DNA of 64,000 bases from a virus, in IMG/VR virus record IMGVR_UViG_3300030447_000342, one strand, 5' to 3'. The notes under the pieces were generated by a model. The model had not been told where the DNA came from, ran no database searches, and saw nothing but the letters and a program-made list of their open reading frames with translations. Position numbers and translations under genes: made by a program. Position 1 is the first letter of the stretch. Every line of letters begins with the position of its first letter. Of this stretch, positions 17,690-56,019 are shown one piece after another.

Positions 17690-17693
17690 AACC

Positions 17694-18908: not shown

Positions 18909-18954
18909 TCATCAAGCGCCTTTCAAAGCCTTGTGGCACAAGTGATTCAAGCCA

Positions 18955-19828: not shown

Positions 19829-19839
19829 ATTTTTCCTCC

Positions 19840-27597: not shown

Positions 27598-28201
27598 AAT
27601 CGAAATGTCTCCGGTACGAATTTCCTTTACGAACGTCGCCCTTATAGCGTCTGATTTTTCTATTGGAATATGTTTTCCAAAACGTCTGCCTGTTTGAGTT
27701 CTTGGGGTACTGGATGTAACTTCCGACCGGCTGATAAACGCCGTCTCTCCAACCCCAGTCTGTATAGCCGATACCTGACTTATATCCATAGGTCATAATA
27801 CGCATCAGCTTTTCTTTCTTCTGTTTGCGCATCTTGCGCCGATATGCTCTCCCGGTTTTTCTCGGTTCACACAGTTTACCATGCGGCTTGTCCGCCTCAA
27901 AAGCATCGCTACAATAACCACTGATAAAAAATTCAGTCTGGACTTTATCGCAACCGCAGTATTCAAGCTGCGGTTCGTAGCCACCCTCTCTTGCAACCCT
28001 GACCCTATGCTCAATGCCTTCACAAATCGGGCATTCATCGCAAGTGAACTTTCTTCCATAGAACTCAAGCATGATTGACCTCCTGCTGAAAAGTCTTACT
28101 GCTTCGTCAAGATGTACTCCGTATTTGCTGTTTGGATGGTAATTGTGTCTTCGCCGTTTCCCCACGGAGTAAAATCCAAAACAGTAGATGTATGTAGGCA
28201 A
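27578..28201 (-). CDS. Hypothetical Cys- and basic-rich protein
   Basis: 207 aa with CDECPICEG..CGCDK cysteines. Confidence 0.4.
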   Translation of the reverse strand: MPTYIYCFGFYSVGKRRRHNYHPNSKYGVHLDEAVRLFSRRSIMLEFYGRKFTCDECPICEGIEHRVRVAREGGYEPQLEYCGCDKVQTEFFISGYCSDAFEADKPHGKLCEPRKTGRAYRRKMRKQKKEKLMRIMTYGYKSGIGYTDWGWRDGVYQPVGSYIQYPKNSNRQTFWKTYSNRKIRRYKGDVRKGNSYRRHFDYAWEVD

Positions 28202-29701: not shown

Positions 29702-30787
29702 TCAGTCCTTTTCTGCGAGAAGGAAGTCAGGATTGATGACCTTGAAGCTGATGTTGCTCTGGACATTGCGCATAACTACACCTTCTCGTTTTTGTTCCTT
29801 ACGAACCACTGATTTTCCCTTGGAATACTCGACCAGCTCAGCGATAGTTTCGGGCAGGGTCTTGTCCTCCTCAACAATCGGAACAGTCTTAATTCCATAC
29901 GGCTCAAGCAGTTTCTTGATTTCTGCCGTGCCACACTTGTGGTCTGGATAAATCAGGTTGAAGGCAAACAAGTCGTACCCACTAATGTGGTACTTGTTGC
30001 CCTGAATCTGGTTGCCGCAAATCTCACCTTGTAAAACGATGGTTTCATAATCACCGACAAGGTGTTTCAGCACATCTTCGATGTGAAGCTGGCGTGCAAT
30101 CGTCCAGTATGAGCTGTTGTCAGGCGTGCCAAGATAGATATTTCGGCTGCAAACGCCAAACTCATACTTGCGTTTGGAAACTTTGCGCAGGTAATACGTC
30201 GCTGACTGCCCATCAACTTTCTCTGTGACAGAGAACTTCGTTCCCTTGTTACGCTCCATCTCAAAGAGCGTCGTAAGGTTTTGAATGCGGGTCTCATCCG
30301 TCTTGGCAATCCAGTCGGGGAATCCTCCCTTGCGCTTGGGCTTCATAAACAGTTTGCGATACCACTTGAATCGCATCAGGAAGCGAGCGATTGCGCTCTG
30401 CGGTTTTTGCGGTTGCTTCGTCAAGAGCTGTGCTTCTTGCTGCGCTTCTGGGTCATACTTCTTAATGCCCAAAGCGTCTGTCACATCGGCGCCAAGAATG
30501 GCAGGAGTACCATTCGGAAGGATTGACAGTGGGAGAACCAAACCCTGACTGACCTGACCACGCAGCTTAATGGTGCGGACTCTGAACTTTCTGTCTCTCA
30601 AGAACTCGAACTCTGGGCGCTCTGGGACGATAGAATCGACCTCAATGTAAACGATATGCTCTCCTGTATGGAACTCGCCTTTCTGAACCACACATTCCCA
30701 ACCATCGACCTGCGCAACTTCAATGCGGTCAGCTCCTGCAATCGGGCGAAGAGATGCAATCTCACGGATTGTTGCCAAATGTCGCAT
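29702..30787 (-). CDS. ATP-dependent RNA ligase (Rnl family, DraRnl-like with a tRNA-binding-like N-terminal domain)
   Basis: N-terminus LATIREIASLRPIAGADRIEVAQVDGWECVVQKGEF. Nucleotidyltransferase motif I KVDGQSATYY (KxDG). Downstream ligase motifs. Confidence 0.6.
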   Translation of the reverse strand: MRHLATIREIASLRPIAGADRIEVAQVDGWECVVQKGEFHTGEHIVYIEVDSIVPERPEFEFLRDRKFRVRTIKLRGQVSQGLVLPLSILPNGTPAILGADVTDALGIKKYDPEAQQEAQLLTKQPQKPQSAIARFLMRFKWYRKLFMKPKRKGGFPDWIAKTDETRIQNLTTLFEMERNKGTKFSVTEKVDGQSATYYLRKVSKRKYEFGVCSRNIYLGTPDNSSYWTIARQLHIEDVLKHLVGDYETIVLQGEICGNQIQGNKYHISGYDLFAFNLIYPDHKCGTAEIKKLLEPYGIKTVPIVEEDKTLPETIAELVEYSKGKSVVRKEQKREGVVMRNVQSNISFKVINPDFLLAEKD

Positions 30788-34300: not shown

Positions 34301-35047
34301 TTACGGCTGTGAGCCGTAGGCTGGCATCGGATTGAGCTTGTGCAGGTTCTGCGTATGCTTCTTTGCAATTACTTTGTCGATGTCTTCATCCCCACTACTA
34401 CCGTGCATGATGTAGTTGTCGAGCTGCATATAGGTAAAGCCCAGATTGTCTTCGTCTGTCTTACCGCAAAGACCGTCCGATGGAGTCTTGTCTACCAGCT
34501 CACGAGGAATGGGGAGTTCGTAGCCAATCTGACGAACCTCATGCACCATGATGTTTGCGAGTGGGCTGAAGTCACCAGCGCTGTCACCGAACTTTGTGGA
34601 GTATCCAACATAATCCTCGGAGCGATTGCAGGTGTTTGCCACCCGACCTCCGCGAGCCAATGACTGCGCGACCATATAGAGTGTCGCCATACGCAGCCTT
34701 GGAGGGAGATTGACCGCTGCCTGATTGCTTACTCCAGACGGCATTGCTCTGCCGACTGCATCAACCATCTTGCTGTATGCGCCGCCAATGTCAACTGTAA
34801 TACTTGCAATGCCAAGCGTATCGACCAGCAGCTTGGAGTCTGCGATATCTTTCTGCCGACCATTCGGCATCAGCACACCGATAACCCGCTCTGTGCCAAG
34901 GGCTTCAACACAAAGTGCTGCGACCACGCTGCTATCTTTGCCACCGGAAATGCCGATAACAGCACAACAGTCGTTGCCGTTTGCAGCGAAATATTCTCGA
35001 ATCCACTGCACGATTTCATCTTTTGTTCTTTTCGGATTTGCCAGCAT
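34301..35047 (-). CDS. nadE: NAD+ synthetase, NadE-type PP-loop ATPase
   Basis: PP-loop GISGGKDSS. LRMATLYMVAQ. YSTKFGDSAGDFSPLANIMVHEVRQIGYELPIPRELVDKTPSDGL aligns with NadE TKYGDGGADLLPL..K.P.ADL. Confidence 0.75.
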   Translation of the reverse strand: MLANPKRTKDEIVQWIREYFAANGNDCCAVIGISGGKDSSVVAALCVEALGTERVIGVLMPNGRQKDIADSKLLVDTLGIASITVDIGGAYSKMVDAVGRAMPSGVSNQAAVNLPPRLRMATLYMVAQSLARGGRVANTCNRSEDYVGYSTKFGDSAGDFSPLANIMVHEVRQIGYELPIPRELVDKTPSDGLCGKTDEDNLGFTYMQLDNYIMHGSSGDEDIDKVIAKKHTQNLHKLNPMPAYGSQP

Positions 35048-35048
35048 A

Positions 35049-35501
35049 CTATACCTCTTTTCTCCACAACTCTACTGTGTACTTATCAGACAGTTCCTTT
35101 TGGATAAGACCCAAAATCACATTCCAGTCCCCACCGCCAAGACCGCATCCAATCTTAAACGGCATGGCAATTGTTTCTTCTGCAGGTACGGTCAACTTAA
35201 TCCGTTTTAAGCAGCTCTGAAATGCGGTGTAATCTGTGTACAGTTTCCCATCATATCCGTAGTTGCTCTGCGCAAACATATTGACAACGACTTTACCGTC
35301 GTTAGCTTGAACGAACTGCGTCCGACCGAACGCATTGCGCTCTTCGTTGCAGAAGCCAACATAGGCGTTATAGACTTCTGGATACTTGGCTCGAACCTGC
35401 TTCGCCACACCACTACCCATTCTCGCCTGACAGTTAACCTGATGGCAAATATATTTGGCGTGGGTCTGAAACAAATCTCCATCAATAATTTGTACCGGCA
35501 T
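35049..35501 (-). CDS. Macro-domain protein (ADP-ribose binding/processing)
   Basis: VQIIDGDLF..HAKYICHQVNCQARMGSGVAKQV..GCGLGGGDW resembles the Macro fold (GDIT..D.IVNAAN..GGGV). Confidence 0.7.
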   Translation of the reverse strand: MPVQIIDGDLFQTHAKYICHQVNCQARMGSGVAKQVRAKYPEVYNAYVGFCNEERNAFGRTQFVQANDGKVVVNMFAQSNYGYDGKLYTDYTAFQSCLKRIKLTVPAEETIAMPFKIGCGLGGGDWNVILGLIQKELSDKYTVELWRKEV

Positions 35502-36991
35502 CAGAACGTTCCTCCGTGAAGATTCTTACGAACCTCATCCAGCGTGAACTGCTTTTCAAACTTTCCATCTCTAAACACGGTGCGCAGTTCATTGCTGTCC
35601 TGTGCTTCAGCCCAAGTAAGACCATCAACGTAATCGTAGCCGTCACCAGTTTTGACTACGCGGCAGCAACCACGCTGAGACTTCTTAAAATGTCCTGTGT
35701 CTGTCTTGGGATTCTTGAAAATCATAATCGGTTTGCCGTCGGCATCTTCTGCATATGTCGCTTTAACTGCAATGCCGAATGTATCCCTCGTGTACGGATT
35801 GTACTGTTTGCTTCCATCGCTCTCGATTGTCTCTAAGCACTCCATTGAGAATGAACCGACACCGAGCGAAACATTATTGATTGCAAAGCCGTTTTTCTCC
35901 AAAAGAGAATAGATTTGCTCACAGCGCTGCGGAGTAATGCTGTCTCCGTAAATTGCCTTGACGTGCGGATTCAGCACCTTGTACCCCTTGCTATTTACTG
36001 TGCCGCCAAAGATGTCCCACAGACGATATACGGTCTCAGTGATTACACTAACAGGGTCACCGCTGTCGCCGCGAATTGAGATGAAGCCATCGTGATTTAG
36101 GATGTCATCTTTGAGCTGAGGGAGGACTTTTTCAACAAGATTCCAATAGTCATAGCTGTCGCTAACCATTGAGAAACTTTGATGCGGATACACCTCACAA
36201 AGAAGTCGTCGAATCTGTGTCACCTCATCACCGTCAACAGCAAAGTTGGAACACATTACGCTGTGTTCTGTTGAGAGCGCACCATATGCGACAGGTTCCT
36301 TGCTACAATCACAGTTGTAATTATGCTCAAGCCACAAAATCGCAGGCACTGTCGCCGTATTCAAGAAGCTCAGGCAGAAAGCCGCTGCGCTCTTTGTTGC
36401 ACTTTCAACGCTCTCTTGCCCGCGCATAGAAAAATCGCCAAGGAGTCTCGCACGAACCACACTGTCATCGCAAGTGCGTTCTGCATACTCATTGACGATT
36501 TTACGATATCTGTACCCAACCTCAGCGGAGACTTGCGTATGCCACATTGTGCAAGAGAGCATCGTCTCGATGGTGTTGACCAGCCATACGAAGTTAGGGT
36601 GTGTATTTGAGATTTCAATTTGTGGGACTTTGATATTGGTTCTCGTTCCTTCGGGAACAGCACGAATCTGTAACGGAAGATAGCCGAGGTCGTGCAATTC
36701 ACGAAGCCGTTTCTCTCCAACGCCTTTTGTTCCGATTGTTGCCCCAAGAACTCTGGTGTACTCCTTGAGTACACTATCAAACGGGACATTAAAGAAGTGG
36801 TCGTTGAATGCCTCAATAAGATATTCCTGAATGAATGCCTGAAGTCCAAACAGTGTAACCTTATCGGTATCACCGAGGCGACTCATGCGTGGCGTGTAGT
36901 AGGAGACCATTTTGGTCAAGCCCTTCGGATACTGTTCAGCGTGACAAGTCTTATAGAAGTCCAGACACAGGAGCGGATTATATGTAATCAT
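35501..36991 (-). CDS. Nicotinamide phosphoribosyltransferase family protein (NadV/NAMPT-like; a Namat-like ADPR-PP-dependent enzyme cannot be excluded)
   Basis: 496 aa. The LDFYKTCH N-terminal motif and overall architecture match the NAMPT family. Co-localised with the Prs-like gene. Confidence 0.8.
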   Translation of the reverse strand: MITYNPLLCLDFYKTCHAEQYPKGLTKMVSYYTPRMSRLGDTDKVTLFGLQAFIQEYLIEAFNDHFFNVPFDSVLKEYTRVLGATIGTKGVGEKRLRELHDLGYLPLQIRAVPEGTRTNIKVPQIEISNTHPNFVWLVNTIETMLSCTMWHTQVSAEVGYRYRKIVNEYAERTCDDSVVRARLLGDFSMRGQESVESATKSAAAFCLSFLNTATVPAILWLEHNYNCDCSKEPVAYGALSTEHSVMCSNFAVDGDEVTQIRRLLCEVYPHQSFSMVSDSYDYWNLVEKVLPQLKDDILNHDGFISIRGDSGDPVSVITETVYRLWDIFGGTVNSKGYKVLNPHVKAIYGDSITPQRCEQIYSLLEKNGFAINNVSLGVGSFSMECLETIESDGSKQYNPYTRDTFGIAVKATYAEDADGKPIMIFKNPKTDTGHFKKSQRGCCRVVKTGDGYDYVDGLTWAEAQDSNELRTVFRDGKFEKQFTLDEVRKNLHGGTF

Positions 36992-37212
36992 TCAGCTTTT
37001 CCTCTTTTCTTTAGTTTTTCACCATATTTCGCAAAAAACACAGCAAACGCGAACGGTGCTGCAACAATCCAGAAAACACCTACCATAATATACCCGTCTT
37101 CGAACCCATTATATTTGTTATATGGTTCTACGATAACGTACAAGCGGCAAAGTGCGAATGTTACAATCGCACCAATGCAGAGGTACAGGAGCACTAAAAG
37201 GACTGTCATCAT
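36988..37212 (-). CDS. Hypothetical small membrane protein
   Basis: 74 aa, two TM helices. Confidence 0.35.
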   Translation of the reverse strand: MMTVLLVLLYLCIGAIVTFALCRLYVIVEPYNKYNGFEDGYIMVGVFWIVAAPFAFAVFFAKYGEKLKKRGKAE

Positions 37213-38414
37213 TCCTCTTCACCCGCCTTAAAGTTATAAATCGGCTTGATGATGGCATCAATAGTCACTGTTGGTTCGACATTGTTTACGATATCATCCA
37301 TACCTTTGTATGCCATCGGGCATTCATCGAGCGTGCTTCTTCCAACAGATGTAGTGTAGATACCCTCCATCTGCTTCTTGAACTCAGAAACTGTGAATGT
37401 CTCTTTCGCCGCGCTGCGGCTCATCAAACGCCCAGCTCCATGCGGGGCAGAGAAGTTCCAGTCTTCATTTCCTTTGCCGGTACACAGCAAACTACCGTCT
37501 CTCATGTTGATAGGAATCAGCAGCCGCTCACCAGCTTGTGCAGAGACCGAGCCCTTGCGAAGAATCATATTCTCTACATCGATGTAGTTGTGAATAGTTG
37601 TAAACTGCTCTTCGACATGGAAGCCCATACCCTTAACAATGGTGTCCATCATTGCTTGGCGGTTAAGTTCAGCAAAACGTTGAGCAATTTTCATGTCATG
37701 GATATACTGCTCAAACAATTCTCCCTCAACGTATGCAAGCTGCTTTGGAACTCCCGGCTTCTTCGCCTTCATGCCTTTAAGAACAGATTGGATTTCTTTT
37801 TGTCTTCCAGCCGCTTTTAACTCGTTGACAACCTCCTCGATTTCTTCCTTGGAATACGAGGTTAACGCCTTGAACGCAGCTTCCTGATAGAAGTTAGCAA
37901 TCTCCAGACCAAGGTGTCTACTACCGGAATGCACCACAATATAGATGTGTCCATCATCATCTTTGTTGGCTTCGATGAAATGATTCCCTCCACCAAGCGT
38001 ACCGATGCTTTTATATGCGCGGTCTACATTGACCATCTTTACACAGCACAGTTCCGACAGGTCGATGCTACTTGCATATCTATGAGCTTCTGTGCGAATC
38101 TCGAAACCGGACGGAACTCCTGCACGAATAACTTTGTCCAGCTTCTGCGGTTCGATATGCGTTTCTTTGATACGGATAGTTTCCATGCCGCATCCAATGT
38201 CAACGCCGACAAGGTTCGGGCAAATCTTATCCTTGATGGTCATCGTGGTTCCGATTGTACAACCAGCCCCAGCATGAATGTCTGGCATCATACGGACTTT
38301 GCTTCCCTCGATGTACGGTTGATTCAAAAGATTGATAACCTGAGAGATAGACTCATTATCGACCACGTCGGTAAACACCTTTGCGACGCCAAACTTACCC
38401 TGTAACTCAAGCAT
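37209..38414 (-). CDS. rtcB: RtcB RNA 3'-phosphate/5'-OH ligase
   Basis: MMPDIHAGAGCTIGTT..NLVGVDIGCGM and the HGAGR motif HGAGRLMSR. Confidence 0.85.
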   Translation of the reverse strand: MLELQGKFGVAKVFTDVVDNESISQVINLLNQPYIEGSKVRMMPDIHAGAGCTIGTTMTIKDKICPNLVGVDIGCGMETIRIKETHIEPQKLDKVIRAGVPSGFEIRTEAHRYASSIDLSELCCVKMVNVDRAYKSIGTLGGGNHFIEANKDDDGHIYIVVHSGSRHLGLEIANFYQEAAFKALTSYSKEEIEEVVNELKAAGRQKEIQSVLKGMKAKKPGVPKQLAYVEGELFEQYIHDMKIAQRFAELNRQAMMDTIVKGMGFHVEEQFTTIHNYIDVENMILRKGSVSAQAGERLLIPINMRDGSLLCTGKGNEDWNFSAPHGAGRLMSRSAAKETFTVSEFKKQMEGIYTTSVGRSTLDECPMAYKGMDDIVNNVEPTVTIDAIIKPIYNFKAGEEE

Positions 38415-38433
38415 TTGCCCGCCTCCTTTAAGA

Positions 38434-39222
38434 TTAGATTAGCGAAATCTTTTCGCTGTGTCCGCGATAGATACTGTCTGTGGTAAACACATGGCGGATT
38501 AAGCCATCCGTGAGAACTGTTCCGCTGTGAATTGTGTTTTCACAATGGGTCACATACAAATACACTTCATTCGCGCCAGCCTCTTTTAGTGCCTTAGCTG
38601 TAAAAGTGAATGTGCCACCGCGAGAACAAATATCATCGACAATCAGCACATTTCTATCGGCAACCTTTTCTGGGCTCGTCAGTTCCAGCCGTTCAATTTT
38701 CCCGGTGCGCCAGTCTCTATGCTTGATGCAGAACACATACTCTCTACCAGCTTGCGATGAATATCGTTTTGCTGCTCCCTCATCAGGATAGCACAACAAC
38801 ACATTTTTGTCATCCAACTTGTCCAGAGCTTTCTGGATGTGCGGCTGCGCGTCATATACCTTGACTCTGTCAAGCAATGCTGCTGATACATTCGAGTGAG
38901 GGTCATCGACTAACACGTCGTCAAAATCCAGCGTGTTGATAAACTCCGCAAACCATTTTAGCGTAAACACTTCGTCCGCATTTTTTACTCTATCCATTCT
39001 GGCATTTGGAATGTATGGGAGCAGCAAGCGGAGGCGAACGTCCCGGTCATGGTCGCGGATATGATTTACCAGATACCATAGAAGGATGCACTCCTCATCG
39101 CCGTCATACTTCCATGTGATATTGAAGATGCGAGTCATTGAGCCAAACGGATTATACCTGAAAGAGGTTGTACCATCGGGGAACTTTGTAAACTCGACCT
39201 GCTTGTCGTTGACAAGAATCAT
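38434..39222 (-). CDS. Ribose-phosphate pyrophosphokinase homolog (Prs-like; candidate ADP-ribose pyrophosphokinase Adps)
   Basis: Type I PRTase/PRPP-binding loop NVLIVDDICSRGGT. Prs-like N-domain. Confidence 0.75.
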   Translation of the reverse strand: MILVNDKQVEFTKFPDGTTSFRYNPFGSMTRIFNITWKYDGDEECILLWYLVNHIRDHDRDVRLRLLLPYIPNARMDRVKNADEVFTLKWFAEFINTLDFDDVLVDDPHSNVSAALLDRVKVYDAQPHIQKALDKLDDKNVLLCYPDEGAAKRYSSQAGREYVFCIKHRDWRTGKIERLELTSPEKVADRNVLIVDDICSRGGTFTFTAKALKEAGANEVYLYVTHCENTIHSGTVLTDGLIRHVFTTDSIYRGHSEKISLI

Positions 39223-39779
39223 GCCGTGACCCCCTCGTTCTCGATGTTAATCTGGCACATTTTCATTGCCGACAGTGCAGTCTTGTGACTCTCTGGTGTC
39301 ACGCCAGCGCAGCAGGAAGCATCGACCGTAATCTTAACTTCCGGCATAAACGCCTTGAGCAGCAAGGCATTTGAGATAACACAGATATCGGTACAAAGAC
39401 CGACAAGGACAATTTCTTCTATGCCATCACCAAACGCAACTTCTGGATATAGGCGACCAGCAAGTGCTAATGAACCAAACGTTTTCTTCTCGAAACCATT
39501 CATCTGGTCATCCGCTGGATGCTTGCTCTGAATTGCTGCTTTAACTGAGCTATGAATCTGCCAGCCATTACTTGCAGATATACAGTGTTTTACCGGCAAC
39601 AATCTTCCTTCTTGCGTTTCGAGGTAATCATCAGAATGGGTGTCTTGTGTCCACAAAACTTCCCCATCAAACTCTTCGATTTTCTTGACGACCTTCGGCA
39701 CAATAGCCTGTGCCTCTGGTGTCCCGAGCGTACCATCAATAAAGTCGTTCTGCATATCAACGACAACAAGAACCTTCAT
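39219..39779 (-). CDS. Isochorismatase-family cysteine hydrolase (PncA-like nicotinamidase candidate)
   Basis: VVDMQNDF, the conserved Lys FEKKTFGS, and the catalytic Cys in GLCTDICV. Confidence 0.7.
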   Translation of the reverse strand: MKVLVVVDMQNDFIDGTLGTPEAQAIVPKVVKKIEEFDGEVLWTQDTHSDDYLETQEGRLLPVKHCISASNGWQIHSSVKAAIQSKHPADDQMNGFEKKTFGSLALAGRLYPEVAFGDGIEEIVLVGLCTDICVISNALLLKAFMPEVKITVDASCCAGVTPESHKTALSAMKMCQINIENEGVTA

Positions 39780-40774: not shown

Positions 40775-41257
40775 TTAATCCTCCATTTCCACTATTTCAG
40801 TTGAGACCCTAACGAGCTTGGACAATGCTTTTTCTGTCAGGAACGCATATTGTACGCCAAGCTGCGTACTGGTTAACTCTTTTCGCATTGCTGTAGCCGC
40901 CACGTCAATCGACACATTGCTATTTCTCAGCTTTGTAAATTTACTTTTCAAATTACTTCCTCCGCCAGCCATATATCCGATTACCAAATCGACATTTGGA
41001 GCGGTGCCGAGCCTTGAAGAAACCACGAACCGAAGCCAGTCCTCAGACCTTTCATCAAACTCCAGAACAGAGAGTCCATCCAAGTCTGTGAGCAGATATG
41101 TTTGGACATATCCCACCCGAGAGTTTTTAACTGCCATCGGCAAGGCATCGAAATAATTTTTGGCAAGATAAAAGCCGCATCCGAAATCTCGGTGCGGCTT
41201 ACACTTGTTCAGGGTTGGTACATCGAAATCTGCCGGAGTACCGTGATACAGATACAT
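40775..41257 (-). CDS. Hypothetical protein with an N-terminal L-Y-H-G-T motif
   Basis: MYLYHGTPADF: an HGT motif of the type seen in H-Y-E-class ADP-ribosyltransferases and Tpt1/KptA. Otherwise unassigned. Confidence 0.4.
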   Translation of the reverse strand: MYLYHGTPADFDVPTLNKCKPHRDFGCGFYLAKNYFDALPMAVKNSRVGYVQTYLLTDLDGLSVLEFDERSEDWLRFVVSSRLGTAPNVDLVIGYMAGGGSNLKSKFTKLRNSNVSIDVAATAMRKELTSTQLGVQYAFLTEKALSKLVRVSTEIVEMED

Positions 41258-41278
41258 GGCAACCCTCCTCTATAAAAT

Positions 41279-41355
41279 TGGTCTGGGTGAGAGGACTCGA
41301 ACCCCCGACATCTTGCTCCCAAAGCAAGCGCACTACCATCTGTGCTACACCCAGA
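41279..41355 (-). tRNA. tRNA-Pro (anticodon UGG), CCA encoded
   Basis: Cloverleaf parsed by hand. Anticodon loop TTTGGGA closed by CTTGC/GCAAG. T-loop TTCGAGT. 3' CCA. Confidence 0.8.
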
Positions 41356-41383
41356 TATAATGGTTTTGTTTCCGAACACACAC

Positions 41384-41444
41384 GCACTACTGATGGGTTC
41401 GAACCATCCTCACCATAAGCATCGCCATCAATGCTTAGTAGTGC
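41384..41444 (-). ncRNA. Aberrant 61-nt tRNA-like element: acceptor stem and T-arm present, only one internal arm, no CCA
   Basis: GCACTAC..AGCA[ttgatggcga]TGCT..GATGG TTCGAAC CCATC..GTAGTGC. Too short for D-arm plus anticodon arm. Confidence 0.3.
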
Positions 41445-41482
41445 GTGCCGGGGCAGAAAGGAAAACGGATATGTCAGTCCGT

Positions 41483-41558
41483 TGGAGCTGGTGACAGGGC
41501 TCGAACCCGCAACCCAGTGAGTACAAATCACTTGCGCTACCAATTACGCTACACCAGC
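41483..41558 (-). tRNA. tRNA-Thr (anticodon UGU), CCA encoded
   Basis: Anticodon loop TTTGTAC closed by AGTGA/TCACT. Acceptor GCTGGTG/CACCAGC. 3' CCA. Confidence 0.8.
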
Positions 41559-41602
41559 GTGCACCCTCGTCTTTCCGAGGTGTCAGCTTTTAGCTAAAAG
41601 GC

Positions 41603-41671
41603 TGCTGATGACTGGACTTGAACCAGCGGCTCGCACTTCCGGTGCTGCTCTACCAACTGAGCTACATCAGC
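41603..41671 (-). ncRNA. Aberrant tRNA-like element with a truncated anticodon arm (4-bp stem, 5-nt loop), 1-nt variable region, no CCA
   Basis: Normal acceptor GCTGATG/CATCAGC, D-arm GCTC AGTTGGTA GAGC and T-arm GCTGG TTCAAGT CCAGT. The anticodon region GCAC cggaa GTGC cannot form a 7-nt loop. Confidence 0.3.
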
Positions 41672-41785
41672 ATAGATACGCCCTGCGCCCGTAGGACTCC
41701 GTGTGCACCCGGCTGTGTCTCTTACAGAGATAACAGTTGAGTGATGAACTAACCGTACAAACGTAAGCATGACCAACAGAGCAGA

Positions 41786-41861
41786 TGGAGCTGGAACTCG
41801 GAGTCGAACCGAGAACCCACGCTGTACGAAAGCGTTACTCTACCAGTTGAGCTATTCCAGC
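41786..41861 (-). tRNA. tRNA-Thr (anticodon CGU), CCA encoded
   Basis: ACGCT TTCGTAC AGCGT anticodon arm. T-arm CTCGG TTCGACT CCGAG. 3' TCCA. Confidence 0.8.
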
Positions 41862-42020
41862 ATAGATGCCATCCTGAAACTATGGCGATGTCATTAACAC
41901 CACCAATACAAACTCACTATGATGGCAGTTTTGATAGCGTGAAAGGAGAATCATGGATAAATCATCGTGGCACAAGGGATTGCAGGGATAGAAAACAAGC
42001 TCTAATGCCGAAGATGATTT

Positions 42021-42095
42021 TGGCAGGGGCAGTAGGATTTGAACCTACGAATAACGGAGTCAAAGTCCGCTGTGTTACCGCTTCACCATACCCCT
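42021..42095 (-). tRNA. tRNA-Gln (anticodon UUG), CCA encoded
   Basis: GCGGA CTTTGAC TCCGT anticodon arm. D-loop AAGCGGTAA. Acceptor AGGGGTA/TGCCCCT. Confidence 0.75.
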
Positions 42096-42213
42096 GTATC
42101 TGCAGGCTCATGCAGCGGCGTCCCGCCAAACCAACCTGTAACCGACTTCCAGAGCAGGCTCTGACGTGTCGTAAAGGCATTTCCTTTAACGCATAATTTA
42201 ATGGTTTCTTACT

Positions 42214-42290
42214 TGGAGCGGCGTACCAGACTCGAACTGGCACCACCGGTTTGGAAGACCGGAGTGCTAACCGTTGAACACCAACACCGC
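42214..42290 (-). tRNA. tRNA-Gly (anticodon UCC), CCA encoded
   Basis: CCGGT CTTCCAA ACCGG anticodon arm. 3' GCTCCA. Confidence 0.8.
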
Positions 42291-42476
42291 ATGGTCGGCT
42301 TCTCGCTTAGATTGTCACACGCTACCGGCAACTACGCTCCGAAAAGTCGTAGCCCCTATTCCGTCAGGTCAAACCGGTCTTGACGCATCAAGACAAGCGC
42401 AGTTTTCAGCAAGCATTTTCATTCTTTGTGAGGTAAGCCGATAATCTCTCACATCAGTTGGGAGCTACCCAACAAC

Positions 42477-42552
42477 TGGCAGGGGTGAATGGATTCGAAC
42501 CACCATCTGACGGTTTTGGAGACCGCTATGTTAGCCATTGCACCACACCCCT
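42477..42552 (-). tRNA. tRNA-Trp (anticodon CCA), CCA encoded
   Basis: GCGGT CTCCAAA ACCGT anticodon arm. Acceptor AGGGGTG/CACCCCT. Confidence 0.8.
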
Positions 42553-42642
42553 TGGCGGAGTGGACAGGACTTGAACCTGCACATCCTTTCGGATTACTCA
42601 CGGTTTAGCAAACCGCTGCCTTACCGTTAGGCTTACCACTCC
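42553..42642 (-). tRNA. tRNA-Ser (anticodon GCU), long variable arm, CCA encoded
   Basis: GCGGT TTGCTAA ACCGT anticodon arm. Long extra arm. Directly abuts tRNA-Trp. Its 5' end overlaps the stop region of the downstream CDS by ~10 nt. Confidence 0.8.
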
Positions 42643-43314
42643 ATCGGGATTACTTTATTATACAGAGCAATAAACTGCTCATTGACCTGCTTGTCCACAT
42701 GATAATGTCCAAAGAACCACCGCTTGAATGTGAGGTCGGAACAAACCCTATCTAAAAAGCTGACCATCGGGTCGTTCTCGTACCAGCTTGCGAGCAGAGT
42801 CTGAACACTCCTTGGCGCACAATGTGTAATTACATAGTCAACTCGCCAATGATTTTGTTCGAGCGCTGCAATCGCTCGTTCCATTTCTTCTCTGGACGGC
42901 ATTTCCTCTTTCCACCATGAGATATGTTCCACGCGATACTCTTTATCAACAGAGCGAGCACCGCCCATGCAGAAGATTTTCTTTCCATCAATCGTGAGCA
43001 CCTGCCCTCTGTCCAGATGATAGATGTCAGGAGCGATTTCACGCACCTTTCCGCCAAATTTGTCAATCAGCGGGAACTGGTAGAGCATATCAAAGTTCTC
43101 ATGGTTGCCATCAATCCAAAGTGTCGTGAAGTTTTTCGCTGTCAGCCAGTCTTGCCACCACATCTCTCGATGCGAACCGTCCCAGCAGAGTCCAAAATCG
43201 CCACATATGATTACGAAATCATTCTTCGTCAATTCCTTTTGTTGTGGGAACTTTGTTGTATTAAGCTTGGCAATATCAATGTTTGCGTGTGTATCTCCAG
43301 TGACATAAATCATG
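42633..43314 (-). CDS. Calcineurin-like metallophosphoesterase
   Basis: MIYVTGDTHAN, ICGDFG and GNHEN metal-binding motifs. AAAGGAA RBS before the Met at 43314. Confidence 0.65.
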
Positions 43315-43579
43315 CTCAGTTCCTTTCTCATCTGCAGTCCATATGTATATTCTGTTCTGGTCTCTTCGTTTATCTCCTGTAGCGACGGGATTTAGATGAG
43401 CTGAAAGCGAGTTCAAATCCCAAGCGGCGATGATGAAATCATTGGGAGACAATGGGTTCGACAGTCGCTCATCGGATGGAGATGACAAGACATCCCGAAT
43501 AGTTTTAATGAGCTGTACAGCGAGCTTAGGCGCCTTCGCAGCAGGCTGCGGGCGGGGAATTGTGCTGTCCAGCAAAGTG

Positions 43580-43630
43580 ATACTTCAGCCTTTGGCGTGA
43601 AGCACATTCCTTACGAAATGTTATTCACTG
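43580..43630 (-). repeat. Copy A of the conserved two-hairpin RNA-like motif, ~300 nt downstream of the RT gene
   Basis: Minus strand: CAGTGAATAA-[ACATTTC GTAA GGAATGT]-GC-[TTCAC-G-CC AAA GGC TGAAG]. A GNRA-tetraloop hairpin followed by a GCC/GGC-capped hairpin. Confidence 0.6.
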
Positions 43631-43735
43631 CAAATGATAATTTGATTATCCTGTAATCTACATTGAGGTAGCTCCCTACGAGGAGGAGCTCCGGCACCCA
43701 GTGACTGGCGTGCGACATCTTTTGGTCGTCTCGTT

Positions 43736-43762
43736 GAATCCATTGTGGCACAATGGATTCAA
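43736..43762. other. Perfect 12-bp hairpin with a 3-nt loop, inside the structured non-coding region between motif copies A and B
   Basis: GAATCCATTGTG gca CACAATGGATTC. Confidence 0.5.
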
Positions 43763-43861
43763 GTGATTCGGGCTGCTCACCGGTGGTTCGCAGCCTCGAA
43801 GGATGACTTGAGTCTGCAGGTGAATGCGCCTCCGGGGAGGTTTTCCTCCCTATCAAGTTGT

Positions 43862-43912
43862 TACTTATGCCTTTGGCGATAAGCATTGCTTTCGCAATTA
43901 TGCATTACAGGA
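43862..43912 (-). repeat. Copy B of the two-hairpin motif, 20 nt downstream of the RT stop codon
   Basis: Minus strand: CTGTAAT-GCATA-[ATTGC GAAA GCAAT]-GC-[TTATC-G-CC AAA GGC ATAAG]-TAACAA. Confidence 0.6.
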
Positions 43913-43932
43913 TTGCGGGTTATTTATAGACG

Positions 43933-45069
43933 TTACCGCAGGTCGTCCTTCATCATGCGGATTACATCCACATTCATTTTCTTGTTGATGTAAGCTACAA
44001 TTGCGTCGATGGTCTCTTTTTCGACCATACGATAATAGCTATGCAGACCATACATTACCTGTACATCATTCCGCTCCCAAGCGACACCATTGTTCTTATC
44101 TGTGATGTAATTGTACAGCATTGACTGGAACTGCTTTTTCTTTTTATGACCGACCGTAATCTCGTTGTCCTTATTCAGCATAACGCCAAGATTCCAGTTG
44201 CGCCCCGCTGATGAACCATACCGAGTCTTGCTTGCATTGATTGTGAATGGGGCACCAAAACTGCTCAATGTACTTACTACCAGCTCTTCAACAGAGCGAA
44301 CATCAAAATCATACTTGGATGAAATAATGAAGTCATCCGCATATCTGGTATAAATGAAGCTCTGTTTTTCAAAATTACGGAGCGTATTCGACAGTTTGAA
44401 ATCAACCGGAATCATCATTACGTTTGTGATGAGCGGTGAAATTGGGGTGCCCTGCGGTAGCCCACCATTTAAGAACGCTAACGACATAGCTGTCCGCAAT
44501 GCTGCCTCGCCCTGTGGCTCTTTTACAATCTCACTAAAAGGAAAAACCATCGAGAACATTGAGATGGCATAATCCAATGTTGTGCTGCCAAAAAAGTCGT
44601 GCAGGTCAAGCTTTGCGAACCATTTGCTGCTGTTCTTCTGGTGACGCTTAACCGCATCGACTGTACTCCGCTTCTTTACATAAGCAAACGCGGCAGTATG
44701 ATAGAGTGCATGGAAATCATCCTCGAAAATCGTTTTGAGTCTTCTCAAGGCGTCCATCAGCTCTGCCTTTGGCGCATCGATTCTACGAAGACCACCAGAT
44801 TTCTTTGGGATGTAAAAGGTCTCATACAACTCGCTCCGTTCCTTTGCACGAAGCTCTGCTGTATCGTTATTAAATCGCACGAGTTTTCCGATTAAAGCTT
44901 CAACACCAATCTTGCTGGAAAAATGTTCACTGACATTTTCGACCTCGTATGTTCTTGTGTTTGCAATATTGGCATTGACAACCGGAGGTGTCTGATAGTT
45001 TTGAAACAGGTACTCTTCCAGTGTCATCTGATGATAAATCGGTGACTGCCTAACAGTGATATAGACCAT
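43933..45069 (-). CDS. Reverse transcriptase. Retron/group-II-like RT motifs, no maturase or endonuclease domains, and no DGR-type SQ motif.
   Basis: FYIPKKSGGLRRIDAP (RT motifs 1-2). AYVKKRSTVDAVKRH (region 2a, NAxxH-like). LDLHDFFGS (motif A). LPQGTPISPLITN (motif B', QGxxxSP). YTRYADDFIISS (motif C, YADD). FTINASKTRYG and NLGVML (motifs 6-7). AAGGAGG RBS. Confidence 0.8.
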   Translation of the reverse strand: MVYITVRQSPIYHQMTLEEYLFQNYQTPPVVNANIANTRTYEVENVSEHFSSKIGVEALIGKLVRFNNDTAELRAKERSELYETFYIPKKSGGLRRIDAPKAELMDALRRLKTIFEDDFHALYHTAAFAYVKKRSTVDAVKRHQKNSSKWFAKLDLHDFFGSTTLDYAISMFSMVFPFSEIVKEPQGEAALRTAMSLAFLNGGLPQGTPISPLITNVMMIPVDFKLSNTLRNFEKQSFIYTRYADDFIISSKYDFDVRSVEELVVSTLSSFGAPFTINASKTRYGSSAGRNWNLGVMLNKDNEITVGHKKKKQFQSMLYNYITDKNNGVAWERNDVQVMYGLHSYYRMVEKETIDAIVAYINKKMNVDVIRMMKDDLR

Positions 45070-45095
45070 TTCTTCCCCTCCTTGTCCAATAACTA

Positions 45096-45104
45096 ACTGT
45101 AACC
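45096..45104. repeat. Short inverted repeat ACTGTAACC, just upstream of the RT start, complementary to the CGTTACAGT segment of motif copy C (a1/a2-like)
   Basis: rc(ACTGTAACC) = GGTTACAGT versus CCGTTACAGT at 45429-45438: 8 of 9 nt match. Confidence 0.3.
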
Positions 45105-45388
45105 TACATATGTCTGCTGCTTCCCAGAATTCCTAAGTCTGAAGACTACGTCGTCCCTGTGGGAGGTGGTGCGAGCTCTTGCAAGATGCGAGATTTTTTT
45201 TCTTTGATTTCATTGCGACTGAAAGCATGAGTCTGATGTTAGCACATTTCGTCCTTGTATCGAAGATTTGGCGAAAAGTGCTTGACATTTGGTTTGCTTT
45301 ATGGCGTGATGCTGCCGACCCGTGGCAGCCGGTTTGCTTTCAGGGTTCCACCGCGTCATCCTCCGGGGGTCATCCTCCCGACAATTTG

Positions 45389-45439
45389 TTACTTTAGCCT
45401 TTGGCGTAAAGCTCTCTTACGAGAAAATCCGTTACAGTC
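45389..45439 (-). repeat. Copy C of the two-hairpin motif, ~320 nt upstream of the RT start
   Basis: Minus strand: CTGTAAC-GGATT-[TTCTC GTAA GAGA]-GC-[TTTAC-G-CC AAA GGC TAAAG]-TAACAA. Confidence 0.6.
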
Positions 45440-45441
45440 TG

Positions 45442-45462
45442 TGGCGCATTAAGGCTGCGCCA
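45442..45462. other. Perfect 7-bp hairpin whose loop contains the stop codon of the upstream gene, immediately 5' of motif copy C
   Basis: TGGCGCA ttaaggc TGCGCCA. The TAA stop (rc of tta at 45449-45451) lies in the loop. Confidence 0.5.
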
Positions 45463-55605: not shown

Positions 55606-56019
55606 TTACACCTCCCGCAATTTTTTATGGGAGAAGGTTTTACCTCAATAGGTTCGGGCGCGACTCCGAAAACTATTTTCAACTCCAACCTTCCAAGGAT
55701 GCACTTTCATGTTTGTTTTCAACTCCCACGCGGTGGCAGCATTTCCTCCACTTGAACACTTTCGTAGTCCCGCACGCCCCGTAATGGCTTTCAGATTTTG
55801 GATGCCTCCTCACTTACCTTCACCAATACAGGGTCTAAGCGTTAGGTGAGTTGTGCGCACAGGGTTCACATCCCATTAAACCCACCCCACGGAATCGTAC
55901 CGTGCCAGCCTTACGACATCGAACCTCGCTTTAGCGTGAACCAAACCCGACCAACAATCAGGTAGATTCCGCCATACCCATACCACCGGAGTTCAAGGAA
56001 CCCCGGAAAACCGAGCTGT

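What the first reader, a model, noticed from the sequence alone, without database searches (positions are those of the whole stretch)
41603..41671. tRNA-like gene with a deliberately shortened anticodon arm
Acceptor, D-arm (GCTC AGTTGGTA GAGC) and T-arm are textbook. The anticodon region is GCAC-cggaa-GTGC (4-bp stem, 5-nt loop) with a 1-nt variable region and no CCA, so it cannot decode. A tRNA body lacking an anticodon loop is what one would design as a decoy or sponge for anticodon nucleases or tRNA-binding toxins, though a pseudogene is the null explanation.
Basis: seen in the sequence. Interest (0 to 1): 0.55.

Follow-up and report, generated by a model that had tools for sequence, protein, structure and literature searches.

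The report
Conserved phage tRNA mimic without anticodon
A gut-phage tRNA cluster carries a tRNA-Thr-derived gene whose anticodon arm is shrunk to a 13-base stub; diverged relatives keep the stub through compensatory mutations, so it is a selected, non-decoding tRNA look-alike of untested function rather than a dead gene.

Summary
The feature is real. Window 41603-41671 (minus strand) scores 54.8 bits on Rfam tRNA, but ARAGORN does not call it. The anticodon arm is only 13 nt (GCAC-CGGAA-GUGC). It is the only one of 14 tRNA-type genes here without an encoded CCA.

It is not a decaying pseudogene. Orthologs sit at the same position, between tRNA-Thr(CGU) and tRNA-Thr(UGU), in at least five diverged lineages of uncultivated gut phages. 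All keep a 4-bp/5-nt arm, with compensatory changes in the acceptor, mini-arm and T stems. They diverge about as slowly as the neighbouring true tRNAs and much more slowly than the spacers. No version with an intact arm was found. The loop consensus YGNAA matches positions 34-38 of a tRNA-Thr loop, with U32 and U33 missing.

The element is accessory: some relatives lack it and one carries two copies. At least 44 other sequence clusters of short-arm tRNA look-alikes occur in viral contigs.

The phage also encodes RtcB, a second RNA ligase, Thg1-like, CCA-adding and RlaP enzymes. The best guess, untested, is a tRNA-body mimic that occupies a host tRNA-targeting factor.

The parts
41603..41671 (-). 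Element X: a 69-nt tRNA-Thr-derived tRNA-like gene with a miniature anticodon arm. The 5' end is at 41671 and the discriminator A at 41603.
   Evidence: Rfam tRNA 54.8 bits. Own covariance model R1 scores 91.4 bits. The cloverleaf is the minimum-free-energy fold. ARAGORN does not call it.
41665..41671 (-). Acceptor stem, 5' strand GCUGAUG. It pairs with 41604-41610 (CAUCAGC). G1-C72 and C2-G71 are as in tRNA-Thr.
   Evidence: All 7 acceptor pairs show double-sided (compensatory) changes across homologs, with 96-100% of cells paired. The same 5' half occurs elsewhere only in tRNA-Thr genes.
41647..41662 (-). D arm GCUC AGUUGGUA GAGC, including G18 and G19.
   Evidence: Its invariance in my alignments comes partly from the search pattern used.
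41633..41645 (-). Miniature 'anticodon' arm: stem GCAC/GUGC (41642-41645 with 41633-41636) and pentaloop CGGAA (41637-41641).
   Evidence: The arm is 13 nt against the canonical 17. Across 10 sequences the stem is 97.5% paired and 3 of 4 pairs change compensatorily. The loop consensus is YGNAA; G32 and A34 are invariant although the search pattern did not impose them.
41628..41632 (-). Variable loop GAGCC (5 nt, normal length). The C at 41628 is the Levitt-pair partner of G15.
   Evidence: alignment. G15-C48 here becomes A15-U48 in the L061 ortholog.
41611..41627 (-). T arm GCUGG UUCAAGU CCAGU.
   Evidence: T-stem pairs covary, for example G.U to G-C and U-A to C-G or A-U.
41559..41602 (-). 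The 44-nt 3' trailer of X: GCC (no CCA), a small hairpin (CUUUUAG/CUAAAAG), then a conserved hairpin CCUCG-GAAAGA-CGAGG. It ends at tRNA-Thr(UGU).
   Evidence: The second hairpin is conserved in sequence in the L092 clade. The first changes to CUUUG-CUC-CAAAG there. The trailer is present or absent together with X.
41786..41861 (-). Upstream flanking gene tRNA-Thr(CGU). Its 5' leader ends in AUCUAU, as does that of X.
   Evidence: ARAGORN and Rfam; leader comparison.
41483..41558 (-). Downstream flanking gene tRNA-Thr(UGU).
   Evidence: ARAGORN and Rfam. It recombined with X in the L006/L044 variant.

Best explanation
There are two tiers, with separate confidence. Tier 1, what it is (about 0.85): X is a functional, non-decoding small RNA gene derived from a tRNA-Thr gene. 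It is co-transcribed with the minus-strand tRNA array. Its 5' end is probably cut by RNase P. Its 3' end carries no encoded CCA, so it would have to be made by an endonuclease such as RNase Z, and CCA could then be added by the host or by the phage's own CCA-adding enzyme. It folds into a tRNA L-shape with an intact acceptor/T-arm stack and D/T elbow, but its anticodon limb is reduced to a 4-bp stem capped by a YGNAA pentaloop. It therefore cannot pair with a codon in the ribosome. Tier 2, how it works (about 0.3; inferred, nothing shown): it acts through its tRNA body as a mimic that occupies a host factor which recognises tRNAs by shape. The most plausible target is a tRNA-targeting anti-phage nuclease or 3'-end-modifying toxin. 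Because it has no cleavable or decodable anticodon loop, it would soak up that factor without disturbing translation.
For: Structure and selection:
- Orthologs lie at the same position, between tRNA-Thr(CGU) and tRNA-Thr(UGU), in the window clade, the L092/L197/L199/L205 clade, L211, L238, L236 and L061.
- Their mini-arms are GCAC-CGGAA-GUGC, GCCA-CGGAA-UGGU, GCCU-CGAAA-AGGU, GCCU-CGGAA-AGGC, ACCA-CGGGA-UGGU and GGCC-UGUAA-GGCU. The length is constant while the sequence covaries.
- Pair counts: 97-97.5% of cells are paired and 12-13 of 20 pairs show double-sided changes. No shuffle out of 500 reaches the observed values, and slid registers give 26-48% paired.
- X diverges at about the rate of the neighbouring true tRNAs (78-84% identity for X against 71-91% for the tRNAs; 63-66% against 74-85% to L061). 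The adjacent spacers fall to 29-43%.
- The tertiary Levitt pair covaries, G15-C48 to A15-U48.
- No intact-arm version exists in IMG/VR for either half of the gene.

Non-decoding:
- The arm is 13 nt and there is no U33.
- The would-be anticodons differ among orthologs (GGA, GAA, GGG, AAG, GUA).
- ARAGORN does not call it.
- A published review states that the anticodon stem is consistently 5 bp in canonical tRNAs; the non-canonical examples I read there have longer stems (PMC7609411).

Consistent with a role in conflict:
- X is the only tRNA-type gene here without an encoded CCA.
- The phage encodes a CCA-adding enzyme, RlaP, a Thg1-like enzyme, two RNA ligases including RtcB, and two phosphoesterases.
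- X is accessory: absent in the L052-L060, L239 and L258 relatives and duplicated in L236.
- At least 44 further clusters of short-arm tRNA-likes with intact acceptor and T stems occur in viral contigs.
Against: - No expression, end-mapping, binding or phenotype data exist; the function is pure inference.
- RtcB occurs in both X-plus and X-minus relatives, so X is not genetically tied to the repair genes.
- Many known anticodon nucleases read the anticodon loop (own knowledge), which X lacks, so it may not bind them at all.
- A normal tRNA could serve as a sponge equally well, so the need for a stub is unexplained.
- The conserved YGNAA loop suggests the stub is itself a recognition element rather than a mere deletion.
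- The two tandem copies in L236 each carry a 1-72 mismatch and altered loops, which could indicate relaxed constraint.
- D-stem invariance, G27, A35, G40 and G42 in the wider alignments were imposed by my search patterns.
- The deep comparisons rest on about five or six independent lineages.
Confidence: 0.35

Rival explanations
1. It is a processing or architectural element of the polycistronic tRNA precursor. X would survive only because its tRNA shape supplies RNase P and RNase Z cut sites, or correct spacing and folding, for neighbouring RNAs. The analogy is the mascRNA tRNA-like element that defines the 3' end of MALAT1.
For: X lies directly downstream of a conserved structured 114-nt spacer RNA (S1: 34 predicted pairs, 4 compensatory). 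RNase P cleavage at X would form the 3' end of S1. The leader of X keeps the AUCUAU context seen before tRNA-Thr(CGU). No internal promoter signal above chance was found.
Against: L258 carries S1 directly in front of tRNA-Thr(UGU) with no X, so S1 does not need X. X is flanked on both sides by true tRNAs that already provide the same cut sites. Processing alone would not require an intact D arm, a covarying Levitt pair or a conserved YGNAA loop.
Confidence: 0.15
2. It is a partner of the phage's own tRNA-maintenance machinery, or a non-ribosomal carrier. X might be a dedicated substrate, cofactor or regulator of the phage CCA-adding, RlaP, Thg1-like or ligase enzymes. Alternatively it might be charged and used as an amino-acid donor outside translation.
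For: X is the only CCA-less gene among 14 tRNA-type genes in a phage that encodes its own CCA-adding enzyme. G1-C72, C2-G71 and A73 resemble the acceptor identity of tRNA-Thr (own knowledge of E. coli ThrRS identity elements). Non-proteinogenic tRNAs are known in Firmicutes (own knowledge).
Against: Acceptor identity is not conserved: pair 2-71 is U.G in the L092 clade, the discriminator is G in L061, and the L236 copies have 1-72 mismatches. ThrRS needs G35 and U36 in a normal loop (own knowledge). A tRNA-Asp missing a single anticodon-loop nucleotide is charged at under 10% efficiency (PMC12776372). No aminoacyl-transferase gene was recognised among the ORFs scanned.
Confidence: 0.15
3. It is a pseudogene or neutral relic of a third tRNA-Thr gene (perhaps a GGU isoacceptor) that lost 4 nt and is simply still recognisable.
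For: It is dispensable, since several relatives lack it. It has no CCA. The L047/L049 variants have a C.A mismatch at the loop-closing pair. The L236 copies show 1-72 mismatches. ARAGORN labels some short-arm elements 'tRNA-???' (25 of 101 loci here), and such calls are usually ignored in annotation (own knowledge).
Against: The stems stay 97% paired over 20-35% sequence divergence, with many double compensatory changes. The arm length is constant in all lineages. X evolves like a true tRNA while the flanks are scrambled. No intact ortholog was found anywhere. The loop motif is conserved.
Confidence: 0.1
4. It is an unusual but working decoder: a tRNA with a 3-bp anticodon stem and a 7-nt loop (CCGGAAG, anticodon GGA). 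The parallel would be the short-anticodon-stem tRNA-Trp that reads UGA in Blastocrithidia and Condylostoma.
For: The 13 nt can be drawn as 3 bp plus a 7-nt loop with A at position 37. Related families B and C must be drawn that way. Functional tRNAs with 4-bp anticodon stems exist (Kachale et al. 2023, own knowledge; one search listed the related papers PMC12153298 and PMC10089648, which were not opened).
Against: The stem would be 2 bp short, not 1. Position 33 is C rather than U. The implied anticodon changes between orthologs (GGA, GAA, GGG, AAG, GUA), so no codon assignment is conserved. The 30-36 pair covaries as a Watson-Crick pair (C-G, A-U, U-A) in the X lineage, which favours the 5-nt loop.
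Confidence: 0.03

Closest known systems
Canonical bacterial or phage tRNA-Thr (the parent gene family)
   Same: 7-bp acceptor stem with G1-C72 and C2-G71, D arm GCUC-AGUUGGUA-GAGC, 5-nt variable loop, and T arm with UUCAAGU. The 5' half is identical to tRNA-Thr genes in other viral contigs. The loop YGNAA matches positions 34-38 (NGU-AA) of a tRNA-Thr anticodon loop.
   Different: The anticodon arm is 13 nt instead of 17: one base pair plus U32 and U33 are missing. Position 36 is free to vary. No CCA is encoded, although all 13 true tRNAs here encode it. ARAGORN does not detect it.
mascRNA / MEN-beta tRNA-like small RNAs of mammalian MALAT1 and NEAT1 (own knowledge: Wilusz et al. 2008, 2011)
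   Same: A cloverleaf tRNA look-alike with an atypical, reduced anticodon arm. It is matured by RNase P, RNase Z and the CCA-adding enzyme, is not aminoacylated and does not decode.
   Different: It is a eukaryotic nuclear element whose main role is to form the 3' end of the upstream long RNA. Here the upstream spacer RNA exists without X in L258, and X sits between true tRNAs.
Virus-encoded tRNA-like RNAs of murine gammaherpesvirus 68 (vtRNAs/TMERs) (own knowledge)
   Same: tRNA-shaped RNAs encoded in a viral genome that are processed and CCA-tailed but not charged.
   Different: Those supply Pol III promoters and RNase Z sites for downstream miRNA hairpins in a eukaryotic virus. No such cargo is evident downstream of X.
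YrlA bacterial Y RNA, with a tRNA-like module encoded alongside Rsr/Ro60 and RtcB (PMC4201824 and bioRxiv 10.1101/312249, listed and not opened; properties from own knowledge)
   Same: It mimics the tRNA D/T elbow and acceptor but has an abnormal anticodon-stem equivalent. It is genomically associated with the RNA-repair ligase RtcB.
   Different: YrlA has no free acceptor end and continues into a Ro60-binding helix. X has ordinary tRNA ends. There is no Rfam Y-RNA or YrlA hit, and no TROVE/Ro60 domain appeared among the ORFs scanned.
Damaged and religated ('anticodon-less' or loop-shortened) tRNAs made by RloC or Schlafen-like tRNases plus trimming and ligation (PMC12776372; PMC13434031)
   Same: The same end product in shape: a tRNA body whose anticodon loop has lost nucleotides and which is inactive in charging and decoding. 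The phage encodes the relevant ligases and RlaP.
   Different: X is genetically encoded and conserved, not a repair accident. It keeps a genomic 5' leader and lacks CCA, so it is not a retro-copied mature RNA.
Phage T4 stable RNAs (species 1 and 2; RNA C and D) in the T4 tRNA cluster (own knowledge)
   Same: Small stable non-tRNA RNAs embedded in, and co-processed with, a phage tRNA gene cluster. Their function is unknown.
   Different: No sequence or structural homology was tested or is expected. The T4 RNAs are longer and are not simple cloverleaves.

Membership tests
tRNA (Rfam RF00005; working decoder) | Covariance-model score above the curated threshold | tested here: met
   54.8 bits against a gathering score of 29, E = 4.9e-9. 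The model aligns it with 9 consensus positions of the anticodon arm replaced by 5 nt.
tRNA (Rfam RF00005; working decoder) | 7-bp acceptor stem, D arm with G18 and G19, T arm with the T-Psi-C loop, U8/A14, and the R15-Y48 pair | tested here: met
   All are present. Acceptor and T-stem pairs covary, and G15-C48 becomes A15-U48 in L061.
tRNA (Rfam RF00005; working decoder) | 5-bp anticodon stem and 7-nt loop with U33 and a conserved anticodon | tested here: not met
   It has a 4-bp stem and 5-nt loop, or 3 bp plus 7 nt with C33. ARAGORN makes no call. The implied triplet differs between orthologs. A review states the anticodon stem is consistently 5 bp, and the exceptions I read there are longer (PMC7609411).
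tRNA (Rfam RF00005; working decoder) | 3' CCA encoded, as in the other tRNA genes of this genome | tested here: not met
   The discriminator is followed by GCC, whereas 13 of 13 canonical genes are followed by CCA. The L092 clade has GAU and L061 has AAU.
tRNA pseudogene | An intact ortholog at the same position in relatives | tested here: not met
   Relatives have either the same short-arm element or nothing at this position. Scans with the 5' half and the 3' half found no intact-arm version.
tRNA pseudogene | Unconstrained decay: stem-breaking substitutions and indels, evolving at the rate of the flanks | tested here: not met
   97-97.5% of cells are paired, with 12-13 compensatory pairs. 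Identity is 63-84%, like the true tRNAs, against 29-76% for the flanks. Mild exceptions are the C.A pair in L047/L049 and the 1-72 mismatches in L236.
tmRNA / tRNA-like domain of tmRNA | Acceptor and T arm with no anticodon arm, plus a tag reading frame; detected by ARAGORN | tested here: not met
   ARAGORN reports no tmRNA in the window. The Rfam clan competition keeps tRNA. X has a full D arm and no attached tag ORF.
YrlA / bacterial Y RNA | tRNA-like module fused to a Ro60-binding helix, with an adjacent rsr (TROVE) gene | tested here: not met
   No Rfam hit at E <= 1 in 41200-42700. No TROVE domain appeared in the 40 ORFs scanned; the ORFs not scanned are untested.
Short-anticodon-stem recoding tRNAs (Blastocrithidia/Condylostoma type) | 4-bp stem but a normal 7-nt loop with U33 and a fixed anticodon | tested here: not met
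   The loop is 5 nt, or if drawn as 7 nt the stem is 3 bp and position 33 is C. The anticodon is not conserved.
Anti-defence RNA decoy (functional class) | Binds and inhibits a host defence protein and gives the phage a fitness benefit | not testable with these tools
   Only context is available: a tRNA-repair arsenal and a patchy, accessory distribution.

The most novel reading that the evidence does not exclude
Short-anticodon-arm tRNA look-alikes are a widespread, previously undescribed class of phage-encoded RNA anti-defence factors. They would be uncleavable, non-decoding tRNA-body mimics that competitively inhibit tRNA-targeting immune nucleases or tRNA-end-modifying toxins, complementing the phage's tRNA supply and tRNA-repair enzymes. 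This element would be a tRNA-Thr-derived founding example with a YGNAA-capped stub.
Probability: 0.25. Interest if true: 0.8.

Novelty: new variant of a known kind. Interest (0 to 1): 0.6.

Why it matters
Phage tRNA clusters are usually read as codon-supply or replacement sets, and odd tRNA-like hits are discarded as pseudogenes or 'tRNA-???'. Here one such hit is shown to be under structural selection across diverged phages, to be derived from tRNA-Thr, and to be unable to decode. It sits in a genome unusually rich in tRNA-repair enzymes. At least 44 other sequence clusters with the same design exist in viral contigs. If these RNAs act on host tRNA-binding defence factors, they would add an RNA-mimic layer to the tRNA-centred arms race between phages and bacteria, alongside replacement tRNAs and repair ligases. 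They would also give a simple, testable reagent: a 69-nt RNA. Even if the function turns out differently, they are a defined family of viral tRNA mimics to annotate.

Tried and rejected
- Cultured relatives: megablast and blastn against 50,697 phage records found only generic tRNA similarity and no homolog of X or its spacer.
- Intact ortholog: scans with the 5' half and the 3' half returned only unrelated tRNA-Thr or tRNA-Ile genes, or the short-arm element itself.
- Link to RtcB: rejected. RtcB at 88% identity is present in relatives lacking X, and the L061 lineage has X with no RtcB match in the fetched stretch L129 around it.
- X as the 3'-end maker for spacer RNA S1: weakened, because L258 has S1 without X.
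- Retro-copy origin (a religated tRNA copied by the nearby retron-type reverse transcriptase): not supported. X has a genomic leader like that of tRNA-Thr(CGU) and no CCA.
- Decoding with a 7-nt loop: rejected on anticodon inconsistency.
- Literature: six full-text searches found no description of phage tRNA-likes with shortened anticodon arms. The viral structured-RNA survey PMC10690425 mentions 'tRNA or tRNA-like' candidates only generically, and no supplement was held, so expression could not be checked.
- Promoter and terminator scan around the array: counts were at chance level.
- Conserved neighbours of 'family A' short-arm elements: only a small HTH gene and a ParB-methylase gene turned up, with nothing tRNA-related.

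Full report
OBSERVATION. The element is on the minus strand at 41603-41671. It reads GCUGAUG UA GCUC AGUUGGUA GAGC A GCAC CGGAA GUGC GAGCC GCUGG UUCAAGU CCAGU CAUCAGC A. Rfam's tRNA model scores it at 54.8 bits against a threshold of 29 (E = 4.9e-9 over the window). In that alignment, 9 consensus positions of the anticodon arm are replaced by 5 nt. ARAGORN finds the 13 ordinary tRNAs of the window but not this one. The minimum-free-energy fold is the cloverleaf with a 4-bp/5-nt arm (-25.4 kcal/mol, z = -2.4). The whole 4-nt deficit lies in the anticodon arm (13 nt against 17). The missing CCA is real and unusual here: all 13 canonical tRNA genes of the window are followed by CCA, whereas this one is followed by GCC.

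SETTING. The element sits in a minus-strand array: Ser(GCU)-Trp-Gly-Gln-Thr(CGU)-[114-nt spacer]-X-[44-nt trailer]-Thr(UGU)-[128-nt spacer]-Pro. The window has no close relative among cultured phages. Its DnaE-type polymerase is closest (45-47%) to phages of Thomasclavelia, Clostridioides and Bacillus. Near-identical and related contigs are IMG/VR viral contigs; sample 7000000531 is, from own knowledge of IMG numbering, a Human Microbiome Project sample. Three copies in MAGs are labelled Oscillospiraceae, Clostridiales and Peptococcaceae, one from a human gut genome collection (HRGM); this is weak evidence for the host.

The genome is strikingly rich in tRNA and RNA-maintenance genes:
- CCA-adding enzyme with an HD domain (15334-16677)
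- RlaP nucleotidyltransferase (16670-17689)
- cysteine desulfurase (17697-18908)
- phosphoesterase (18958-19545)
- Thg1-like 3'-5' polymerase (20148-20969)
- ATP-dependent RNA ligase (29705-30787)
- RtcB (37212-38414)
- a second phosphoesterase abutting the array (42636-43331)

It also carries an NAD-salvage set (NAMPT, NAD synthase, a PRPP-type enzyme, nicotinamidase), Macro and NADAR domains, and a retron-type reverse transcriptase.

ORIGIN. The 5' half GCTGATGTAGCTCAGTTGGTAGAGC occurs in 20 other viral contigs. In the 18 of these where the contig shows the whole gene, it belongs to a complete tRNA-Thr with anticodon UGU, CGU or GGU. X lies between two tRNA-Thr genes and shares the leader ending AUCUAU with Thr(CGU). 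The pentaloop across homologs is YGNAA (CGGAA, CGAAA, CGUAA, CGCAA, UGUAA). This matches positions 34-38 of a tRNA-Thr loop (N-G-U-A-A) without U32 and U33, and with position 36 free to vary. X is therefore a remodelled tRNA-Thr, possibly descended from a third isoacceptor.

PSEUDOGENE TEST. Neighbour proteins were used to collect syntenic loci at graded divergence. Orthologs of X were found at the same place, between Thr(CGU) and Thr(UGU), in these lineages:
- the window clade, about 20 contigs with minor variants
- the L092/L197/L199/L200/L205 clade
- L211
- L238
- L236, which has two tandem copies
- L061/L129

The arms are GCAC-CGGAA-GUGC, GCCA-CGGAA-UGGU, GCCU-CGAAA-AGGU, GCCU-CGGAA-AGGC, ACCA-CGGGA-UGGU, ACCA-CAAGA-UGGU and GGCC-UGUAA-GGCU. 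They are always 13 nt, and the stem changes are compensatory.

On an 18-sequence alignment, 96.9% of cells pair and 13 of 20 pairs carry double-sided changes. On a 10-sequence alignment of the X type, the figures are 97.5% and 12 of 20. No shuffle out of 500 reaches these values, and shifted registers give 26-48% pairing. The mini-arm itself is 97.5% paired, with 3 of 4 pairs compensatory. The caveats are that the D stem, G27, A35, G40 and G42 were imposed by the search patterns, and that only about six deep lineages are involved.

X diverges about as slowly as the true tRNAs next to it: 78-84% against 71-91% among the closer clades, and 63-66% against 74-85% to L061. The spacer and trailer fall to 29-43%. 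The Levitt pair covaries, G15-C48 becoming A15-U48 in L061. No intact-arm ortholog was found in any relative, nor by scanning IMG/VR with either half of the gene.

It is still an accessory gene. The L052-L060 group and L239 have the two Thr genes 3 nt apart. L258 keeps the upstream spacer RNA but has no X. L053, L235 and L237 carry other spacers at this site.

NOT A DECODER. The arm is 4 nt short. Drawn with a 7-nt loop, the stem is only 3 bp and position 33 is C. The implied anticodons differ between orthologs (GGA, GAA, GGG, AAG, GUA). In the X lineage the 30-36 pair covaries as a Watson-Crick pair, which supports the pentaloop. A review of non-canonical tRNAs states that the anticodon stem is consistently 5 bp; the exceptions I read there have longer stems (PMC7609411). 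The one natural case of a shortened stem that I know of (Blastocrithidia/Condylostoma tRNA-Trp; own knowledge, related papers listed) keeps a normal loop.

A WIDER CLASS. Of 119 loci outside the window clade, 101 have at least 6 of 7 acceptor pairs and at least 4 of 5 T-stem pairs. They fall into 44 clusters at 85% identity. Of the 101, 36 encode CCA and 43 lie within 500 nt of a canonical tRNA. ARAGORN misses 66, labels 25 'tRNA-???' and with a normal three-base anticodon. Families B and C (arms GCA-GGCUGAA-UGC and GCA-AGCUAAC-UGC) occupy a conserved slot (Leu-Leu-[B/C]-Gly) in more distant relatives of this phage, near homologs of its reverse transcriptase and ThiF genes. I could not measure how these numbers compare with the total count of canonical tRNA genes, so the size of the excess over simple decay is unknown. 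Within-family covariation does argue that several families are maintained.

MECHANISM. What is shown is an L-shaped tRNA body under selection, a conserved 13-nt stub with a YGNAA loop, no encoded CCA, and an accessory distribution. The following is inferred:
- X is co-transcribed with the array, since no internal promoter signal exceeds chance.
- RNase P cuts at 41671.
- The 3' end is made endonucleolytically, as for CCA-less precursors in Firmicutes (established knowledge), optionally followed by CCA addition by the host or phage enzyme.
- X cannot act as an adaptor in decoding.

My preferred reading (about 0.3) is a tRNA-body mimic that occupies a host tRNA-recognising factor, most plausibly a tRNA-targeting defence enzyme. 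The reasons are that this genome is evidently shaped by attack on tRNAs, and that the element is accessory, sometimes duplicated, and fast-changing in its acceptor stem and at loop position 36. Recent work shows that defence tRNases can leave loop-shortened or 'anticodon-less' tRNAs that are inactive (PMC12776372; PMC13434031). X is a genetically encoded look-alike of such a product.

Against this reading: nothing ties X to any protein; RtcB occurs with and without X; and enzymes that read the anticodon loop may ignore X. The rivals are a processing or architectural element (0.15; weakened by L258), a partner of the phage's own CCA-adding or repair enzymes or a non-ribosomal carrier (0.15), a neutral relic (0.1), and an odd decoder (0.03).

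NOVELTY. tRNA mimics are a known kind: mascRNA, the gammaherpesvirus vtRNAs, YrlA, the tmRNA tRNA-like domain and the T4 stable RNAs. I found no description of conserved phage tRNA-likes with miniature anticodon arms in six full-text searches. I rate it a new variant of a known kind. Interest is about 0.6: solid evidence that a 'tRNA-???' type of hit is a selected RNA, in a suggestive genomic context, but with no functional evidence.

Noticed in passing
window 41381-41447 (-), within the Thr(UGU)-Pro spacer 41355-41482: A second non-canonical tRNA-like RNA ('TLS2'). It has an 11-12-bp terminal stem (CACGCACUACU/AGUAGUGCGUG), a D-arm-like hairpin AAGCAU-UGAUGGCG-AUGCUU, and a T arm GAUGG-UUCGAAC-CCAUC. 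The fold has z = -3.4. It is conserved in the L197/L199 and L061 lineages with 9 compensatory pairs. It gives a weak hit to my model R1 (21.9 bits) and no Rfam hit at E <= 1.
   Followed up: partly
window 41672-41785 (-): The spacer between tRNA-Thr(CGU) and X is itself a conserved structured RNA ('S1'). It has 34 predicted pairs, 4 of them compensatory between the window and L092 clades. It is present without X in L258.
   Followed up: partly
window 15334-20969, 29705-30787, 37212-38414 and 42636-43331 (all -): An unusually complete tRNA/RNA-repair gene set in one phage: CCA-adding enzyme with HD domain, RlaP, cysteine desulfurase, two calcineurin-like phosphoesterases, a Thg1-like enzyme, an ATP-dependent RNA ligase (PF09414) and RtcB.
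   Followed up: partly
window 27163-27789 and 34304-39779 (-): An NAD+ salvage and ADP-ribose cluster: NADAR, NAD synthase, Macro domain, NAMPT, a PRPP-transferase/synthetase-like protein and a nicotinamidase-type isochorismatase. It resembles the NAD-reconstitution counter-defence described in phages (own knowledge).
   Followed up: no
window 43936-45069 (-), with flanking non-coding stretches 43332-43935 and 45070-45451: A retron-type reverse transcriptase (PADLOC RT_II-A, 6.6e-46; YADD motif) encoded between the two tRNA arrays of a phage. Homologs (39-61% identity) lie near short-arm tRNA-likes in L138, L102 and L149. No msr/msd RNA was searched for in the flanking non-coding DNA.
   Followed up: no
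window 55751-55907, 58189-58319 and 58495-58566 (-): Rfam hits to three orphan structured RNAs: RAGATH-36 (134 bits), RAGATH-4 (148 bits) and RAGATH-16 (96 bits). 'drum' RNA hits occur in the relatives L052, L053 and L058 just downstream of the phosphoesterase gene.
   Followed up: no
L006 602-670 (+), same contig as L044 (IMGVR_UViG_3300045988_101758): A natural recombinant in which the 5' part of X is fused at the T arm to the 3' part of tRNA-Thr(UGU). The fusion deletes the trailer and the intact Thr(UGU) gene, and the chimera has an A5.C68 mismatch.
   Followed up: no
L236 3703-3771 and 3774-3842 (+): Two tandem copies of X, 2 nt apart, with loops CGGGA and CAAGA. Both have a mismatch at acceptor pair 1-72 (G.A and A.C), and copy 1 also has a U.U at the base of the T stem. 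This could be either relaxed constraint or a deliberate variant.
   Followed up: no
26 loci, e.g. L106, L167, L188, L145 and L101 ('family A'): The most abundant short-arm family: GCAGACG..A-CCGCGCCAGGAGG-UAUGC-GCUGG..CGUCUGC-A-CCA. CCA is encoded in most copies. The short arm contains a Shine-Dalgarno-like AGGAGGU. The element is mostly solitary rather than in tRNA arrays, and lies downstream of a small HTH gene and near a ParB/methylase gene. T and acceptor stems covary among members.
   Followed up: partly
L097, L102, L124, L149, L178 (family B); L100, L104, L130, L180, L184 (family C): Short-arm elements in a conserved Leu-Leu-[B/C]-Gly slot of related phages. Drawn with 7-nt loops, they would present CUG (B) and CUA (C, amber-reading) triplets on a 3-bp stem. 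This is probably coincidental, but it is worth checking against stop-codon recoding.
   Followed up: no
L197 1771-1865 and the same gene in L199, L205, L209, L210 and L236; L211 1448-1523: ARAGORN reports a 95-nt tRNA-Gln(UUG), possibly carrying an insertion or intron, in the L092-type arrays. It also reports a 'tRNA-???' with a 4-base anticodon (GGGA) in L211.
   Followed up: no
window 42214-42290 (-): The tRNA-Gly(UCC) gene scores poorly on the general tRNA model (36.5 bits) and slightly better, though below threshold, on the tRNA-Sec model (39 bits against 47). This suggests an atypical structure.
   Followed up: no
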